64,000 nt of DNA from Planctomycetota bacterium. GTDB taxonomy: Bacteria > Planctomycetota > SZUA-567 > H5-PLA8. Both the position numbers and the translations under genes were made by a program. The stretch lies in NCBI GenBank assembly GCA_038227045.1, contig JBBRQD010000013.1, forward strand, positions 5,262-69,261, in the 5' to 3' direction. The notes under the pieces are model-generated. The model did no database searches. It was not told the DNA's origin and worked only from the letters and a program-made list of their open reading frames with translations. This document shows positions 3,191 to 59,503 of this stretch, in pieces. Within the stretch, counting starts at the first letter, position 1, and each line of letters starts with the position of its first letter.

Positions 3191-4801
3191 TCAGACCGCC
3201 GCCAGTGCATGATATTCGCCAAACACCGCGCGGCACACGTCCGCCATCTCGCCCAGAGTCGCGTTGGCTCGCGCGCACCCGGCCAGCGCCTCCATGATAT
3301 TTCCCGAGCCGCTTTCGTCGCGGCAGACGATTTCGAGATTTCTTAACGCGGCTTCGACTTTCAGCGCGTCGCGGGTTGCGCGCATCCGCGCGATCCGGGC
3401 GTTTTGTTGCGCTTCGAGCTGCGGATCGATGGACAGTGTGGGCGGAACTTGATCGCCCCCGGATTCATAAGCGTTAACGCCCACGATCAGCCGGCGCTTC
3501 TGCATGATTTCGGTCTGATACGTGAAACTTGAGCGCGCGATTTCGCGGCGAAAAAATCCCGCCTCCAGTGCGGCGAACATGCCACCGGCTTCCTCGATGC
3601 GTTTAAAATAATCGTAGCATTCGCGCTCCAGCCGATCGGTCAACGCCTCGACGTAGTAGCTTCCGCCCAGCGGATCGGCGACCGCCGCGACGCCGGATTC
3701 GAACGCGACAATCTGCTGCGTGCGCAGCGCAATCTGCACGGCTTTTTCCGTGGGCAGCGCGAGCGCCTCGTCAAAGCTGTTCGTGTGCAGGCTCTGCGTC
3801 CCGCCCAGAACGGCAGCGAGCGCTTCGATGGCCGTGCGGACGATGTTATTCTCCGGCTGCTGCGCGGTCAGCGAAACACCGGCGGTCTGCGCGTGCGTCC
3901 GCAGCAGCAGCGAGCGCGGATTCTTCGCGCCGCGTTTTTTCAGTTCGCGCGCCCAGATGCGCCGCGCCGCGCGAAACTTTGCGATCTCTTCGAAGAACTC
4001 AATGTGGACATCGAAGAAAAACGAAAGCCGCGGCGCGAAGTCGTCGATGTCCAGGCCGGCCTTAATGCCTTCGTCGATGTAGCACAGACCGTCGGCAAGC
4101 GTGAAAGCCAGCTCCTGCCCGGCTGTCGAACCGGCCTCGCGAATATGATAGCCGCTGATTGAAGCCGTGTTCCATTGAGGCGTGTGCCGCGCCGCAAATT
4201 TAAAAATATCCGTGATGATCCGCATCGACGGACGTGGCGCAACAAGCCACGAATTCTGCGCATGGAATTCTTTCAGAATATCGTTTTGGATCGTGCCGCG
4301 CAGCGTGTCAAGCTTCACGCCCTGCCGCTCAGCCGCCGCGATGTAAAACGCGAAGAGCATCGCCGCCGGGCCGTTGATGGTCATCGACGTCGAAACTTTA
4401 TCGAGCGGAATTCCGGCGAAGAGCGTCTCCATGTCATCGGTACTGGAGATCGCCACGCCGCAACGCCCGACTTCGCCGCGGCTGCGCGGATGGTCGGAAT
4501 CGTAACCCATCAAAGTCGGAAAATCGAACGCGACGCTCAAGCCCGTCTGCCCATGCGCGAGCAGATATTTAAAGCGCTGATTGGTCTCTTCCGCGGTGCC
4601 AAAACCGGCAAACTGCCGCATGGTCCAAAGCTTCCCGCGATACATCGTTTCATGGATGCCGCGCGTATACGGAAATTCACCGGGATCACCGAGGTCGCGC
4701 GCGTAGTCGAGCTGCGCGGTGTGGGCGGGCGAGTAGACGGGTTTGTTCTCGACGCCGGAGATGGTGGAGGTTAGGGGCTTGATTGTTGGGGTAGCGGGCA
4801 T
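3191..4801 (-). CDS. acyl-CoA mutase large (catalytic) subunit, isobutyryl-CoA-mutase-like signature
   Basis: Strong similarity by eye to the MCM/ICM TIM-barrel domain (WTMRQFAGFGTAEETN, GLSVAFDFPTLMGYDSD, TIQNDILKEF). ATG at 4801 follows AAGGA; the ORF track's TTG at 4828 is less likely. Confidence 0.9.
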   Translation of the reverse strand: MPATPTIKPLTSTISGVENKPVYSPAHTAQLDYARDLGDPGEFPYTRGIHETMYRGKLWTMRQFAGFGTAEETNQRFKYLLAHGQTGLSVAFDFPTLMGYDSDHPRSRGEVGRCGVAISSTDDMETLFAGIPLDKVSTSMTINGPAAMLFAFYIAAAERQGVKLDTLRGTIQNDILKEFHAQNSWLVAPRPSMRIITDIFKFAARHTPQWNTASISGYHIREAGSTAGQELAFTLADGLCYIDEGIKAGLDIDDFAPRLSFFFDVHIEFFEEIAKFRAARRIWARELKKRGAKNPRSLLLRTHAQTAGVSLTAQQPENNIVRTAIEALAAVLGGTQSLHTNSFDEALALPTEKAVQIALRTQQIVAFESGVAAVADPLGGSYYVEALTDRLERECYDYFKRIEEAGGMFAALEAGFFRREIARSSFTYQTEIMQKRRLIVGVNAYESGGDQVPPTLSIDPQLEAQQNARIARMRATRDALKVEAALRNLEIVCRDESGSGNIMEALAGCARANATLGEMADVCRAVFGEYHALAAV

Positions 4802-4950
4802 GGCGAATCCTTGAGCGGCGATAGGCAACTCATCACTAACTATAACATAAAACGTGTGATTCTTCAGAGCGTGTAAAAGAAAAGATGAAGAAGTCGCCAG
4901 AATATTTCAGTTTCCCTCTTGACTTTGCGATTTTCAATACGTTGTATATG

Positions 4951-5310
4951 TAGAAGCAAGCGCTTCATCGGCGCGGGGGCCACCGCGACGGGAGCGCTTG
5001 ATTTATTTGAAGGTGTCTGACGGCTCTATAGCTGAGGTTGTTGAAGTGGCGCTGTGCGGGTTCGGACGCGCGCCGGCTGTTTTCGGGAGTCTTTGTTGCG
5101 CGCGCGGTGCGATGCGGGCAGAGCGTAAACGGGCGGTTTGTGTTCGCTTTCCCACACCATGTTCTACCGTTCTACCTTACCGAAGTGAGCACGACGAGGG
5201 CGGCCCGGCGGGTTTTGACGCAGGGTTGCCTGGGCACGAATGAATTCCGCACGGCGCTACAATTTGGATTGATTTGAGTTGCAAATTTCACTCAAACGTA
5301 AGCAGAATAT
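4951..5310 (+). ncRNA. candidate structured non-coding RNA (unclassified)
   Basis: Lies in a 527-bp gap with only implausible ORFs. TTGACT box at 4919-4924 with a TATAT-like box about 20 nt downstream. Helix 4957-4964/4993-5000 is perfect. Long-range 14-bp helix 5046-5059/5247-5260 has two G-U pairs that work only on the plus strand. Helix 5116-5125/5145-5153 also has a G-U pair. Confidence 0.3.
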
Positions 5311-5355
5311 TCATTTTTTGGACGCGAGCATGTAGAAGCGAGGAGGCTGCTGAAT

Positions 5356-5826
5356 TCAACCGAAATCGTAAACGTACACATCTTGGCTCTTTAGTTGTTC
5401 AGCGATAATCGGTTCTATTTTTTCCCATTTGCCACCAGCCAGCCCACAACCAATTCGCGGCATGTGAATGCTGTGCCCGCTGGATGAACAGAACTCGTCG
5501 ACTTTTTTCAAACACTCCGCCAAAGCGTCATATCGAATCGGCGGAATTCCGTCGCGCGCGCACATTCCATGCTGCGCGATCATATTGCCGACGGTGAGGT
5601 CAGGCGCCACGGAGATGAATCGCACTGCGCCCAATTTGAACTCGGAATTGGGATTGATTCGATTTTTATATTGCTCGCGAAAGGCTGCCTCTGGCGCAGT
5701 CCATTTCTTGGAAATGGCGACAACGAAACCCTTACCCCAGCCGCCCGCATCGTTGCAAATGTGTACGATCAGTTTCTTGCCTCTGGCGTGCGGATTGGTT
5801 GCGTCGCCCTTCAGGAAGTGGATCAT
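5356..5826 (-). CDS. macro-domain protein (ADP-ribose binding/hydrolase family)
   Basis: MIHFLKGDAT...IVHICNDAGGWGKGFV...PRIGCGLAGGKW matches the macro-domain glycine-rich loops. The upstream 29 codons of the ORF track run into a repeat element and are discounted. Confidence 0.7.
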   Translation of the reverse strand: MIHFLKGDATNPHARGKKLIVHICNDAGGWGKGFVVAISKKWTAPEAAFREQYKNRINPNSEFKLGAVRFISVAPDLTVGNMIAQHGMCARDGIPPIRYDALAECLKKVDEFCSSSGHSIHMPRIGCGLAGGKWEKIEPIIAEQLKSQDVYVYDFG

Positions 5827-5844
5827 AGATTCAACACTCTCTTG

Positions 5845-5945
5845 CTGGCACCCCTCCGGGGTGCGGGATGTTTGGGGATCGAATCCGGTGGTGTTGGCCG
5901 GGTACGGCCTCAACCACCGGCTAATTTCTGAAATCCCTTCGGGAT
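5845..5945. repeat. three-hairpin ~100-nt repeat element, copy A
   Basis: Consists of GCACCC-n4-GGGTGC, then CCGGTGGTGTTGGCC-GGGTAC-GGCCTCAACCACCGG, then ATCCC-n3-GGGAT. Same modules recur at 46558-46660 (inverted) and 46712-46813. Confidence 0.85.
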
Positions 5946-5957
5946 AAAATTGAACGA

Positions 5958-7106
5958 TCAGCTTTCCTTCAACACACTCGCCGCAATAACCACCCGCTGA
6001 ATCTCGCTCGTCCCCTCATACAATCTGCAGATGCGGACGTCGCGGTAGTGGCGTTCGACGTCGTAGTCCTTAATGAAGCCGTAGCCGCCGTGCATTTGCA
6101 GGGCGCGGTCGCAGGCTCGGCCGGCGGCTTCGCTGGCGTAGAGTTTTGCCATGGCGGATTCTTTTGTGTAGCGGCGCTGAGCGAGGTCTTTTAGTTTTGC
6201 GGCGCGCAGCATCAGCAGTTCGGCGGCGTCGAGTTCCGTGGCGCTGTCGGCGATCATCCATTGGATGGCCTGCAAATTCGCCAGTGGGGCGCCGAATTGT
6301 TCGCGCGTTTTGACGTGGCGCACGGCGGCTTCGAGGGCGGCGCGGCCGATGCCGATGGCCTGCGAGGCGATGCCGATGCGGCCGCCGTCGAGCGTTTCCA
6401 GCGCGACCGAAAAACCTTTGCCGAGCGCGCCGAGCAGATTTTCTTTGGGCACGCTGCAATTTGTTAGAATGATTTCCGTCGTGCTCGACGCGTTGATGCC
6501 GAGTTTCTGTTCCGATTTGCCCCGCGCGAAGCCGGGGAAACCGGCTTCGACGATGAACGCGGAGATGCCTTTGTGCCCGAGATTTTTATCGCTCGTCGCG
6601 TACACGACCACGATATCCGCGTAACCGCCGTTGGTGACGAAGAGCTTCGTGCCATTCAATTCGAAATGCGTTCCGCGATCGATGAACGAGGTATTCAAGC
6701 GCGACGCGTCGCTGCCAGAACCGGGTTCGGTGAGCGCGTAGGCTCCGAGTTTTTGGCCGGACGCGAGCGGGCGCAGGTACTTTTCTTTCTGCGCGTCGCT
6801 GCCTTGTTTTAGAATGGGATCGACGCACAGGCTGGTATGAGCGCTCAAGATCACGCCGGTGCTTGCGCAGGCTTTGCTGATTTCAAGCACCGCAAGATTG
6901 TACGCCAGCGCGCTGCATCCCGCGCCGCCGTACTGCTCCGGCACATAGACGCCCATCAACCCAAGCTCGCCCATTTCGCGGACAAGCTCAGTGGGAAAAC
7001 GGCCGGTTTGGTCGAGTTCGCGGGCGAGCGGTTTCACTTTGGTTTGAGCGAAATCGCGCGCTGTGTCGAGAACGGCTTGTTCGGATTCGGAAAGCGTGAA
7101 ATCCAT
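5958..7106 (-). CDS. short-chain (butyryl-type) acyl-CoA dehydrogenase
   Basis: 382 aa. ACAD motifs GLMGVYVPEQYGG, ALTEPGSGSD, YEGTSEIQR. Confidence 0.9.
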   Translation of the reverse strand: MDFTLSESEQAVLDTARDFAQTKVKPLARELDQTGRFPTELVREMGELGLMGVYVPEQYGGAGCSALAYNLAVLEISKACASTGVILSAHTSLCVDPILKQGSDAQKEKYLRPLASGQKLGAYALTEPGSGSDASRLNTSFIDRGTHFELNGTKLFVTNGGYADIVVVYATSDKNLGHKGISAFIVEAGFPGFARGKSEQKLGINASSTTEIILTNCSVPKENLLGALGKGFSVALETLDGGRIGIASQAIGIGRAALEAAVRHVKTREQFGAPLANLQAIQWMIADSATELDAAELLMLRAAKLKDLAQRRYTKESAMAKLYASEAAGRACDRALQMHGGYGFIKDYDVERHYRDVRICRLYEGTSEIQRVVIAASVLKES

Positions 7107-8877: not shown

Positions 8878-8958
8878 CGGTTGAAGGTTTAAAGGTTGAA
8901 TGTTGAAGGTTCAAATCAACAACTTTCAACCTTCAACCTTCTAACTTTCAACAAGTGT
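8878..8958. repeat. imperfect hairpin built from GTTGAAG-type heptamer repeats
   Basis: GGTTGAAGGTTTAAAGGTTGAATGTTGAAGGTTCAAA faces CAACTTTCAACCTTCAACCTTCTAACTTTCAAC. Lies between the argC start and the rsfS stop. Confidence 0.8.
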
Positions 8959-22950: not shown

Positions 22951-23028
22951 AAGGTTGAAGGTTTAGAACGGAGATCACTTTGTCGTGAGTATTTAACCTT
23001 CAACTTTCAACCTTCAAACCTTCAACCC
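22940..23028. repeat. GTTGAAG-heptamer hairpin
   Basis: TTGAAGGTTAGAAGGTTGAAGGTTTAGAA faces TTAACCTTCAACTTTCAACCTTCAAACCTTCAACCC. Overlaps the 3' end of the ABC ATPase ORF. Confidence 0.8.
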
Positions 23029-27747: not shown

Positions 27748-27777
27748 AAAAAAGCGGCCCATGAAGGCCGCTTTTTC
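27748..27777. terminator. bidirectional intrinsic terminator
   Basis: AAAAAGCGGCC-catgaa-GGCCGCTTTTT with A/T tracts on both sides, 48 nt downstream of the secDF stop. Confidence 0.8.
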
Positions 27778-27824
27778 TTAAAACATTAACTCTCAACTTT
27801 AAACCTTCAAACCTTCAACCGCCG

Positions 27825-46557: not shown

Positions 46558-46660
46558 ATCCCGAAGGGATTGAAAGCGATTAGCCGGTGGTTGAGGCCGT
46601 ACGCGGCCGACACCACCGGATTCAATTCAAAATCGTCCTGCACCCCGGCAGGGGTGTCAG
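46558..46660. repeat. three-hairpin repeat element, copy B (inverted relative to A and C)
   Basis: ATCCCGAAGGGAT ... CCGGTGGTTGAGGCCGTACGCGGCCGACACCACCGG ... GCACCCCGGCAGGGGTG. Confidence 0.85.
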
Positions 46661-46711
46661 CCTGGACTTGCCGTAACAATCCAAGCTGTATTTTGTGCGT
46701 TTCGAACTTTG

Positions 46712-46813
46712 CTGGCACCCTTCCAGGGTGCGGCACTTTTGTCTCGTCTATTCCGGTGGTGTCGGCCGGGTACGGCCTCAACCACCGGCTAATCGCTGGC
46801 ATCCCTCCGGGAT
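46712..46813. repeat. three-hairpin repeat element, copy C
   Basis: CTGGCACCCTTCCAGGGTGC ... CCGGTGGTGTCGGCCGGGTACGGCCTCAACCACCGG ... ATCCCTCCGGGAT. With copy B it forms an inverted pair around a 51-nt spacer. Confidence 0.85.
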
Positions 46814-46917
46814 GACGGCAATTCAACCGTTTGCGTTGACGAGTCACTGCTATTTCAAATCACCATGCATCGACCTCGAAGTCACCGGCAAATTAAGGCG
46901 CGTCCGATGTCGCACAA

Positions 46918-59403: not shown

Positions 59404-59503
59404 GGTTGAAGGTTGAAGGTTCAAGGTGATCAGGCACCCGAACCATGAACTTAAAAACCTTCAACCTTCAACCTTCAACCTTCAACCTTAAAACCTTCAA
59501 CCC
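59404..59503. terminator. GGTTGAA-heptamer hairpin between convergent genes
   Basis: GGTTGAAGGTTGAAGGTTCAAGG faces (CCTTCAA)x4-CCTTAAAACCTTCAACCC. Confidence 0.7.

What the first reader, a model, noticed from the sequence alone, without database searches (positions are those of the whole stretch)
4829..5355. 527-bp GC-rich non-coding gap with plus-strand-specific helices: candidate novel structured RNA
The gap between the mutase operon start and the macro-domain gene stop has no credible ORF; the 79-81-aa candidates are Arg/Cys/Gly-rich nonsense. It contains a TTGACT box (4919-4924) with a TATAT-like box downstream. It also holds a nested 5' hairpin (4957-4964/4993-5000 perfect, enclosing 4972-4976/4983-4987). 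A long-range 14-bp helix (5046-5059 with 5247-5260) includes two G-U pairs (5048/5258 and 5053/5253). Another helix, 5116-5125/5145-5153, also has a G-U pair. Further local hairpins include CTTAC-CGAA-GTGAG and CAGG-GTTG-CCTG. The G-U pairs would be C-A mismatches on the minus strand, so the fold is specific to the plus strand, antisense to all flanking genes. I could not match it to tmRNA, RNase P, SRP, 6S or cobalamin-riboswitch consensus features.
Basis: partly seen in the sequence, partly recalled or inferred. Interest (0 to 1): 0.6.

Follow-up and report, generated by a model that had tools for sequence, protein, structure and literature searches.

The report
New multicopy structured RNA gene
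The gap holds a roughly 355-base plus-strand gene for a highly folded non-coding RNA from a previously undescribed family, found in 2 to 5 copies per genome in two related soil Planctomycetota; its function is unknown.

Summary
The gap 4829-5355 is non-coding and carries a plus-strand structured RNA of about 355 nt (~4951-5305).

- **Copies.** This genome has a second copy (83% identical). A congeneric MAG has at least five. All sit in unrelated gene neighbourhoods. All are preceded by the same conserved block, TTGAC-N16-CGT..TATATAGAAGC.
- **Not coding.** Indels of 1, 2 and 4 nt separate the paralogs, and no peptide is shared in any of six frames.
- **Shared fold.** All six full copies have a 5' hairpin, a three-way core and a conserved 3' hairpin.
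- **Covariation.** 95.7% of pair cells are standard pairs, against 84.7±1.3% in shuffles. 19 pairs change on both sides, including 12 of the 13 pairs of helix H2.
- **Strand.** G·U outnumbers A·C 44 to 4, and the plus strand folds better in all six copies.
- **Known families.** Rfam 15 gives nothing even at E≤5. tmRNA and RNase P lie elsewhere in the genome.
- **Limits.** No transcript data (the run finder was closed), and the family was detected in only one genus.

I read it as a new, lineage-restricted family of stand-alone RNAs that probably share regulation.

The parts
4905..4957 (+). Conserved upstream promoter-like block: TTGAC (4919-4923), a 16-nt spacer, CGT (4940-4942), then TATATGTAGAAGC (4945-4957), which probably holds the transcription start.
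   Evidence: Sequence. The block is aligned in front of all 7 copies, with CGT and GAAGC invariant. The pattern CGTN{3,4}AYATRTRGAAGC hits only these loci in 17 family genomes. It occurs only at the two copies in this genome. The sigma-70 scan does not call it.
4951..5305 (+). Predicted RNA, about 355 nt. Both ends are inferred from where similarity between copies starts and stops.
   Evidence: Similarity between copies runs from the TAGAAGC motif to about 10 nt past the 3' hairpin. Copies are 362-518 nt over this span and 66-86% identical.
4957..5000 (+). P1, the 5' hairpin: 4957-4966/4991-5000 enclosing 4972-4976/4983-4987.
   Evidence: MFE folds. It is kept in the paralog with one compensatory and several one-sided changes. 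The apex varies in length, and several copies in the other species carry a palindromic insert there.
5046..5071 (+). 5' strands of the closing helices Pa (5046-5060), Pb (5061-5064) and Pc (5067-5068, 5070-5071). The sequence GCGYYGTGCGGRWT(N)GRRCGCGCRCC is conserved.
   Evidence: Helices 1 and 2 hold 23 pairs, 96-100% paired, 4 of them with changes on both sides. The pattern is specific to the six full copies in 62 genomes of the class.
5073..5136 (+). H1, a long irregular hairpin: 5073-5075/5134-5136, 5077-5085/5124-5132, 5091-5097/5117-5123 and 5099-5101/5114-5116. Its apex is 5103-5105/5109-5111, closing a GGU triloop at 5106-5108.
   Evidence: Pairs checked in both copies of this genome. 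An equivalent long hairpin with a GGU triloop is recovered independently in the other species, with compensatory changes at the apex and base (columns 216-286).
5138..5194 (+). H2, a 13-bp helix (5138-5150/5182-5194). Its 31-nt loop carries CACACCAUG (5153-5161) and three UACC repeats (5165-5168, 5173-5176, 5178-5181).
   Evidence: Present in the separate MFE fold of each copy tested. 12 of 13 pairs change on both sides and 94.9% of cells are paired (helix 6). The loop motif CACACSAYG..UACC is conserved. Two copies carry an extra 13-bp hairpin in the loop.
5198..5231 (+). H3, the third branch. The base helix 5198-5201/5228-5231 is conserved; the interior varies.
   Evidence: helix 7 (4 pairs, one with a change on both sides). 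The other species has a longer H3 with compensatory changes (columns 385-431).
5234..5260 (+). 3' strands of Pc (5234-5235, 5237-5238), Pb (5241-5244) and Pa (5246-5260).
   Evidence: CGCACGRCGCYACA is conserved in all six full copies.
5273..5305 (+). 3' hairpin (5273-5279/5290-5296) with the conserved loop UGCAAAUUUC (5280-5289), followed by the conserved tail ACGUAAG. Similarity between copies ends here.
   Evidence: GCAAATTTCACTC is identical in 5 of 6 full copies across both species. No T-run terminator follows in most copies.

Best explanation
Window ~4951-5305 (+) encodes a stand-alone, highly structured non-coding RNA. It belongs to a previously undescribed multicopy family.

**Shown**
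- The unit consists of a conserved promoter-like block, a 5' hairpin, a three-way-junction core (H1, H2, H3) closed by a roughly 21-bp composite helix, and a conserved 3' hairpin.
- It occurs twice in this genome and at least five times in a congeneric soil Planctomycetota MAG.
- It always lies between unrelated genes, and downstream genes are often convergent.
- Selection keeps the helices through compensatory changes while loop sequences stay fixed.

**Inferred**
- Each copy is transcribed on its own from the shared upstream block. The invariant TTGAC-N16-CGT geometry resembles promoters of ECF-type alternative sigma factors, so the paralogs would be co-induced by one signal.
- The RNA acts in trans. 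It would present its conserved single-stranded elements (the H2 loop CACACSAYG plus repeated UACC, the GGU triloop, the 3' loop UGCAAAUUUC) to a protein partner or to target RNAs.
- It would therefore work as a redundant regulatory or scaffold RNA.

My odds are about 0.8 that it is a real plus-strand structured RNA gene. They are about 0.25 for the specific co-regulated, partner-binding mechanism.
For: - **Paralog in this genome.** 79% identity over the BLAST match and 83% over the full unit, with frame-breaking indels.
- **Congener copies.** Five promoter-motif hits, four of them full copies.
- **Covariation on six copies.** 95.7% of cells are paired against 84.7±1.3% in shuffles (0 of 500 reach it). 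19 pairs change on both sides against 8.4±1.9. Slid controls give 32-48% paired. H2 has 12 of 13 pairs changed on both sides.
- **Independent recovery.** The same helices appear in each copy's own MFE fold. They also appear in an RNAalifold run on an unfitted MAFFT alignment of the congener's copies alone.
- **Strand.** 44 G·U cells against 4 A·C cells. Core fold z-scores are -1.6 to -6.6 on the plus strand, and less negative on the minus strand in all six copies. The promoter block lies on the plus-strand 5' side.
- **Not coding.**
- **Not a known RNA.** Rfam gives nothing at gathering or at E≤10 and E≤5. ARAGORN finds nothing here. The real tmRNA and RNase P genes lie on other contigs.
- **Neighbours.** Unrelated genes flank the copies: SecDF, acyl-CoA dehydrogenase, HEAT/cytochrome c, FGE-sulfatase, DUF2252, PMT_2 and DUF5650.
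- **ECF comparison.** An ECF sigma gene in the congener has GGAAC-N16-CGTA upstream. The AAC/CGT rule for ECF promoters is my own knowledge.
Against: - There is no transcript evidence.
- Only two genomes of one genus carry it. Two other congeners, 58 further genomes of the class and 400 of the phylum gave nothing. The genome search missed known copies scoring 20-41 bits, so absence is weak.
- The six sequences form about three lineages. The main count was made on a model-fitted alignment, which leans towards the structure.
- No sigma-70 promoter or intrinsic terminator is called, so both RNA ends are inferred.
- The -35 element is TTGAC, not the AAC-containing ECF consensus.
- TTGAC-N16-CGTY is not enriched genome-wide.
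- Nothing identifies a partner or a target.
Confidence: 0.8

Rival explanations
1. It is the orphan RNA component of a mobile or defence-type system, or itself a selfish promoter-carrying RNA gene. Candidates would be a guide or scaffold RNA like IscB/TnpB omega RNAs, or a retron-type RNA. Copy number and changing positions would then reflect mobility rather than a cellular regulatory role.
For: - Copy number differs between congeners (2 against at least 5), and no copy is at a syntenic position.
- The orthologous acyl-CoA dehydrogenase/mutase locus of the congener lacks both the RNA and the macro-domain gene.
- Several copies lie at contig ends, as repeats do in MAGs.
- The distribution is very narrow.
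Against: - No transposase, reverse transcriptase, IscB/TnpB or integrase appears among the neighbours scanned.
- No terminal inverted repeats or sharp high-identity boundaries are seen. Copies are 66-86% identical and carry compensatory changes, so they are old and under selection.
- Rfam families such as HEARO, group II introns and retron RNAs do not match.
- Nothing similar is in the phage or plasmid collections or in viral contigs.
Confidence: 0.1
2. It is a DNA-level structured repeat, like REP elements, integron attC sites or IS200/IS605 ends, recognised as folded single-stranded DNA and not made into a functional RNA.
For: Such elements are multicopy and keep their structure through compensatory changes. 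This genome has REP-like palindromes, one right next to the macro-domain gene at 5842-5945.
Against: - The unit is 360-520 nt with a multi-branched fold, a promoter-like block and conserved loops, far larger than REP or attC sites.
- G·U cells outnumber A·C cells 44 to 4. That fits a folded RNA of one strand.
- No recombinase is nearby.
Confidence: 0.04
3. It is a cis-acting leader on the minus strand, for example a cobalamin riboswitch or attenuator in front of the B12-dependent mutase.
For: On the minus strand the element would lie about 100-130 nt upstream of the mutase start. A B12-dependent enzyme is a classic riboswitch target.
Against: - No cobalamin or other riboswitch match appears even at E≤10.
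- The orthologous mutase of the congener has no such element upstream.
- The other six copies are next to unrelated genes.
- The fold is better on the plus strand in all copies.
- The conserved promoter block would lie downstream of a minus-strand RNA.
Confidence: 0.03
4. It is a highly divergent version of a housekeeping RNA that Rfam fails to find in this lineage, in particular a 6S-like RNA that binds RNA polymerase.
For: RF00013 (6S) finds nothing in either genome that carries the family, so that role is unassigned. 6S-type RNAs can have paralogs and their own regulated promoters.
Against: - The architecture is a three-way junction plus extra hairpins, not a rod with a central bubble.
- The length is 360-520 nt against about 185 nt for 6S.
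- It was detected in only 2 of 62 genomes of the class.
- The 6S model is insensitive anyway: it scored in only 5 of 14 control genomes.
Confidence: 0.03

Closest known systems
Redundant multicopy regulatory sRNA families with a shared promoter (Qrr1-5 of Vibrio, RsmX/Y/Z of Pseudomonas, CsrB/C)
   Same: Several diverged paralogs per genome sit at unlinked loci. Each has its own strongly conserved upstream block, conserved single-stranded motifs presented on stable helices, and no linked target gene.
   Different: Those RNAs are 100-370 nt and simple stem-loop arrays, with many GGA motifs or one seed. This RNA is 360-520 nt with a long-range closing helix and a three-way junction. No sequence or Rfam similarity exists. 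No regulator, partner or target is known.
Large 'ornate' orphan bacterial RNAs (OLE, raiA, GOLLD, ROOL, HEARO)
   Same: It is a large, multi-helix non-coding RNA supported by covariation, with conserved junction and loop nucleotides. It is not tied to a downstream gene and its biochemical function is unknown.
   Different: No match to any of these Rfam models. It is multicopy with an obvious promoter block, restricted to one genus as far as detected, and not associated with prophages, IS elements or the gene partners of those RNAs.
sRNAs transcribed from ECF sigma promoters (sigma-E-dependent MicA, RybB and MicL of E. coli)
   Same: The upstream block has the ECF-like geometry of a -35 element, a 16-nt spacer and an invariant CGT. 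It compares with GGAAC-N16-CGTA in front of an ECF sigma gene of the congener.
   Different: The -35 element is TTGAC, not AAC-containing. Dependence on any sigma factor is untested. The known ECF-dependent sRNAs are short Hfq-binding base-pairing RNAs.

Membership tests
Any Rfam 15 family (4227 models) | Score at or above the family's gathering threshold, or at least a consistent weak match across copies | tested here: not met
   0 matches in the whole window at gathering. Only two chance hits to eukaryotic families at E≤10 in 4700-5500. 0 matches at E≤5 over all seven copies.
Cobalamin riboswitch (RF00174, RF01482, RF01689) | Match to the B12-box and aptamer model, and a position in the 5' leader of a B12-related gene on the same strand | tested here: not met
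   No match at E≤10. The fold is on the strand opposite to the mutase. The other copies are not next to B12 genes.
tmRNA | tRNA-like acceptor and T-arm ends plus a tag reading frame; one gene per genome | tested here: not met
   ARAGORN finds none in the window or in three other copies. The genome's tmRNA is on contig C96 with tag ANPFAVQGNLAMAA.
RNase P RNA (RF00010) | Match to the type A model with conserved regions CR-I to CR-V | tested here: not met
   The real RNase P RNAs score 279 and 268 bits on other contigs of the two genomes. The element gives no match.
6S RNA (RF00013) | About 185-nt rod with a closing stem, a central bubble and a terminal loop | tested here: not met
   No RF00013 match in either genome or at the element. 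The supported fold is a three-way junction. Binding to RNA polymerase cannot be tested here.
IscB/TnpB omega RNA (HEARO) or retron msr-msd RNA | Adjacent iscB/tnpB or reverse-transcriptase gene and transposon ends; match to the RNA model | tested here: not met
   Pfam annotation of the neighbours of the copies shows none of these genes. No Rfam match.
Protein-coding gene or pseudogene | A reading frame or peptide similarity conserved between copies | tested here: not met
   Frame-breaking indels between paralogs. 0 cross-species peptide matches among 80 stop-to-stop segments of at least 25 aa in six frames.
Structured non-coding RNA (general criterion) | Helices kept through compensatory changes beyond controls, on one strand | tested here: met
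   (0 of 500 shuffles reach the observed value on all five measures; slid controls 32-48% paired against 95.7%). (independent recovery). (strand).
Structured non-coding RNA (general criterion) | A transcript of the predicted strand and size exists | not testable with these tools

The most novel reading that the evidence does not exclude
The family is a new class of large folded bacterial RNA with an activity of its own, such as a ribozyme, a self-assembling scaffold or the RNA core of an unknown RNP. It would spread within genomes as a self-contained unit of promoter plus RNA, a bacterial counterpart of SINE-like RNA genes. That would explain the differing copy numbers and non-syntenic positions in two congeneric species.
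Probability: 0.1. Interest if true: 0.8.

Novelty: new variant of a known kind. Interest (0 to 1): 0.55.

Why it matters
Planctomycetota are almost unexplored for regulatory and structural RNAs. Few large, covariation-supported bacterial RNA families remain without a description.

This one is unusual in three combined ways. It has a complex fold of 360-520 nt. It has several diverged paralogs per genome. It has a sharply conserved promoter block that may tie it to an alternative sigma factor.

If transcription is confirmed, it provides:
- a defined RNA with clear conserved loops for partner hunting;
- a candidate read-out of a stress regulon in an uncultured soil lineage;
- a seed alignment for a new Rfam family.

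Its narrow detected range limits its general importance.

Tried and rejected
- **Wider homolog searches.**
  - The GTDB-wide and metagenome pattern scans (scored in 26) returned only the congener's contig and its metagenome twin; the rest were chance hits.
  - Viral contig scans gave chance hits or nothing.
  - Plasmid and phage BLAST gave nothing.
  - Covariance-model searches of the family, class and genus and pattern searches of the class and phylum found nothing outside two genomes.
  - The genome search misses known copies, so these are weak negatives.
- **Model R1.** It was built on the RNAalifold consensus of the two local copies and had the interior wrong. R2, with a hand-set structure, scored the congener copies better. 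R2 still gave a 23.5-bit false hit inside the acyl-CoA dehydrogenase gene.
- **MAFFT across species.** Alignments put H2 and Pb out of register, so they were not used for cross-species pair counts.
- **Test of a predicted partner strand.** The truncated fifth congener copy (contig C106) should have a 3' strand reading CGCACGACCGC. No such site sits next to the 3' hairpin motif, so the rest of that copy is probably unassembled.
- **Exact-protein look-up** of the mutase for strain variants: not on record.
- **tmRNA resemblance.** GGAUUCGAACG and GGUGCAU in the congener copies recalled tmRNA. I rejected this: ARAGORN finds nothing, there is no conserved tag frame, and the real tmRNA is elsewhere.
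- **Genome-wide enrichment** of TTGAC-N16-CGTY: none.
- **Literature.** One search found no description of such an RNA.

Full report
**1. What is at 4829-5355**

The gap lies between the start of the mutase large-subunit gene and the stop of a small macro-domain gene.
- The mutase gene is 3191..4801/4828 on the minus strand.
- The macro-domain gene is 5356..5826 on the minus strand. Pfam Macro scores 22.1 bits, just over the cut-off.

Rfam 15 finds nothing in the whole window at gathering thresholds. In 4700-5500 it finds only two chance hits to eukaryotic families at E≤10.

Folding the window copy alone is not impressive:
- z = -0.97 on the plus strand and -1.02 on the minus strand for 4940-5300.
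- The simple scan calls no sigma-70 promoter or terminator.
- The gap is 47-58% GC, below the flanking genes; only the core reaches 61%.

**2. The element is a repeated, diverged unit**

- A search of the window's own genome found a second copy on contig C93, minus strand, ~1480-1870. It is 79% identical over the BLAST match and 83% over the whole unit.
- The two copies differ by indels of 1, 2, 3 and 4 nt and by longer ones. These break the candidate reading frames.
- A covariance model of the two copies found a diverged homolog in a congeneric genome. That genome is G002, whose GenBank record is titled Planctomycetota bacterium isolate SMAG_U9752.
- A pattern for the conserved 5' motif, CGTN{3,4}AYATRTRGAAGC, then found five loci in that genome and none in the other 15 genomes of the family.
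- Four of the five are full copies (contigs C146, C8, C199, C255). The fifth (C106) is cut by a contig end.
- Full copies are 362-518 nt. Identity is 66-71% between the species and 73-86% within G002.
- No peptide is shared between the two species' copies in any of the six frames.

The unit is therefore conserved, non-coding and multicopy.

**3. Structure**

I set a structure from the two local copies and built model R2 from it. R2 aligned the congener copies at 20-41 bits.

On that six-sequence alignment:

| Measure | Observed | Control |
|---|---|---|
| Cells forming standard pairs | 95.7% | 84.7±1.3% in column shuffles (0 of 500 reach it) |
| Pairs changed on both sides | 19 | 8.4±1.9 (0 of 500) |
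| Cells paired when partners are slid 1-3 columns | – | 32-48% |

- H2 (window 5138-5150/5182-5194) has changes on both sides in 12 of its 13 pairs and is still 94.9% paired.
5048·5258 is G·U here, A-U in the paralog and G-C in G002. 5053·5253 is U·G here and C-G elsewhere. The neighbouring pair is C-G in this genome and U-A in G002.

This alignment was fitted to the model, so I looked for independent support. RNAalifold on a plain MAFFT alignment of the four G002 copies alone recovers the same plan:
- the closing helix Pa/Pb and the short helix Pc;
- a long hairpin H1 ending in a GGU triloop;
- H2 and H3.

That run has 17 pairs with compensatory changes.

The apex of H1 closes the same GGU triloop in every copy with different pairs: CGC/GCG here, CGCU/GGCG, CCGGC/GCCGG and CGGC/GCUG in G002 (sequences).

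Length variation sits where a folded RNA tolerates it:
- an extra 13-bp hairpin inside the H2 loop of two copies;
- palindromic inserts at the apex of the 5' hairpin;
- an extra GC hairpin before the 3' hairpin in two copies.

**4. Strand and ends**

- In the consensus helices, G·U cells outnumber A·C cells 44 to 4. That gives 95.7% standard pairs on the plus strand against 82.5% on the minus strand.
- The cores fold better than dinucleotide shuffles on the plus strand (z = -1.6 to -6.6). In all six copies the plus strand beats the minus strand.
- Upstream on the plus strand, all copies share a block with invariant CGT and GAAGC. Most share TTGAC exactly 16 nt before the CGT.
- In this genome the motif occurs only at the two copies.
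- Similarity between copies ends about 10 nt after a 3' hairpin. Its loop and 3' arm, GCAAAUUUCACUC, are identical in five of six copies.

I therefore place the RNA at about 4951-5305. Both ends are inferences.

The promoter type is also inferred. An ECF sigma gene of G002 has GGAAC-N16-CGTA upstream, and 'AAC ... CGT' is the usual ECF signature (my own knowledge). The block's TTGAC-N16-CGT geometry is ECF-like, but its -35 differs. TTGAC-N16-CGTY is not enriched in the genome.

**5. Context**

- The neighbours of the seven copies have nothing in common: mutase and macro domain; DUF5650 repeat protein and PMT_2 glycosyltransferase; acyl-CoA dehydrogenase and an anti-sigma/ECF sigma pair; DUF2252; SecDF; HEAT/cytochrome c and FGE-sulfatase.
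- In three loci the downstream gene converges on the RNA.
- The orthologous mutase locus of G002 has the acyl-CoA dehydrogenase gene about 420 bp from the mutase, with no RNA and no macro-domain gene. G003 differs again.

The unit is therefore a stand-alone gene whose positions and copy number change between species. It is not a leader of the mutase. No transposase, reverse transcriptase, IscB/TnpB or integrase is adjacent. Nothing similar is in the plasmid, phage or viral collections.

**6. What it is not**

- tmRNA is on contig C96.
- RNase P RNA is on contig C86, and on C56 of G002.
- ARAGORN finds nothing at the copies.
- All seven copies give zero Rfam matches even at E≤5. This excludes the cobalamin riboswitch that the neighbouring B12-dependent mutase would suggest, and also HEARO, group II introns, OLE, GOLLD, ROOL and raiA.
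- A 6S model finds nothing in either genome. However, the fold here is a three-way junction twice the size of 6S, and the model is insensitive.

**7.

Confirmed:
- the lack of a credible ORF;
- the TTGACT/TATAT boxes;
- the nested 5' hairpin;
- the long-range helix with its two G·U pairs;
- the plus-strand call.

Not supported: helix 5116-5125/5145-5153 and the two small hairpins CTTAC-CGAA-GTGAG and CAGG-GTTG-CCTG. Their bases belong to H1, H2 and H3, and they are not kept in the other copies.

**8. Distribution and limits**

The family was detected in 2 of 4 genomes of the genus, 2 of 62 of the class, and none of 400 sampled from the phylum. In the metagenome scan it was found only in the contig that duplicates G002's.

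These negatives are weak, for three reasons:
- The genomes are 74-95% complete MAGs.
- Multicopy elements tend to drop out of MAGs.
- The genome search missed known copies.

No transcript data could be consulted. A combined model of all six copies could not be calibrated.

**9. Explanation and verdict**

The evidence supports a real plus-strand structured RNA gene of an undescribed, lineage-restricted multicopy family. My odds are about 0.8.

The most likely mode of action is a set of redundant, co-regulated trans-acting RNAs. They would be transcribed from a shared, possibly ECF-type, promoter. They would present conserved loops (H2 loop CACACSAYG plus UACC repeats, the GGU triloop, the 3' loop UGCAAAUUUC) to a protein or RNA partner. 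This is inference, at about 0.25.

The main rival is an orphan RNA of a mobile or defence-type system, or a self-propagating RNA gene, at about 0.1. DNA-level repeat, minus-strand leader and divergent 6S are each unlikely.

The finding is a sound candidate for a new RNA family. It is of moderate interest because of its complexity and multicopy organisation, and is limited by its narrow range and unknown function.

Noticed in passing
window 5842-5945 and 46575-46825: A REP-like palindromic repeat (core CCGGTGGTGTYGGCCGGGTACGGCCTCAACCACCGG) lies between the acyl-CoA dehydrogenase and macro-domain genes. It recurs, partly inverted, about 40.7 kb away. It overlaps the upstream part of the long TTG-started version of the macro ORF, so the ATG at 5826 is the likelier start.
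   Followed up: partly
window 4829-5957 compared with L065 (G002:C230) 2020-2438: Compared with the congener, this genome has about 1.1 kb extra between the acyl-CoA dehydrogenase and the mutase. The extra DNA holds the REP-like repeat, the macro-domain gene and the RNA gene. The congener has only a gap of about 420 bp there.
   Followed up: partly
L041 (G002:C146), L051 (C199), L052 (C255): first ~60 nt of the RNA: Three full G002 copies carry a palindromic GGGCC/TATAGGGCC-type insert at the apex of the 5' hairpin; the truncated C106 copy has a different insert there. A similar sequence follows the 3' end of the C146 copy. It looks like a species-specific REP-like element that the RNA tolerates at that position.
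   Followed up: no
L011 (G002:C146) 5530-5575, minus strand: A textbook ECF-type promoter, GGAAC-N16-CGTA, lies upstream of an ECF sigma gene (4661..5458) and its PDZ-containing anti-sigma partner (3245..4207), next to one RNA copy.
   Followed up: partly
window 6309-6501 (+): Covariance model R2 gives a 23.5-bit, apparently significant hit (E = 6e-5) inside the acyl-CoA dehydrogenase coding region. This false positive shows how high the noise of a GC-rich two-sequence model reaches.
   Followed up: no
genome contigs C96:18187-18570 and C86:14700-15178: The tmRNA (tag ANPFAVQGNLAMAA) and RNase P RNA (279 bits) of this genome are here. No 6S RNA is detectable with RF00013 in this genome or its congener.
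   Followed up: partly
window 8889-8953, 22978-23027, 27771-27820, 59453-59502: A short tandem-like motif family (CCTTCAACC / AACCTTCAA runs) recurs at four or more intergenic places in the window, on both strands.
   Followed up: no
L050 (G002:C106) 101-265: A fifth G002 copy has the same promoter block but a much shorter and diverged 5' domain. Its 5' closing strand reads GCGGTCGTGCGG. It is cut by the contig end, and its 3' half was not found in the assembly.
   Followed up: partly
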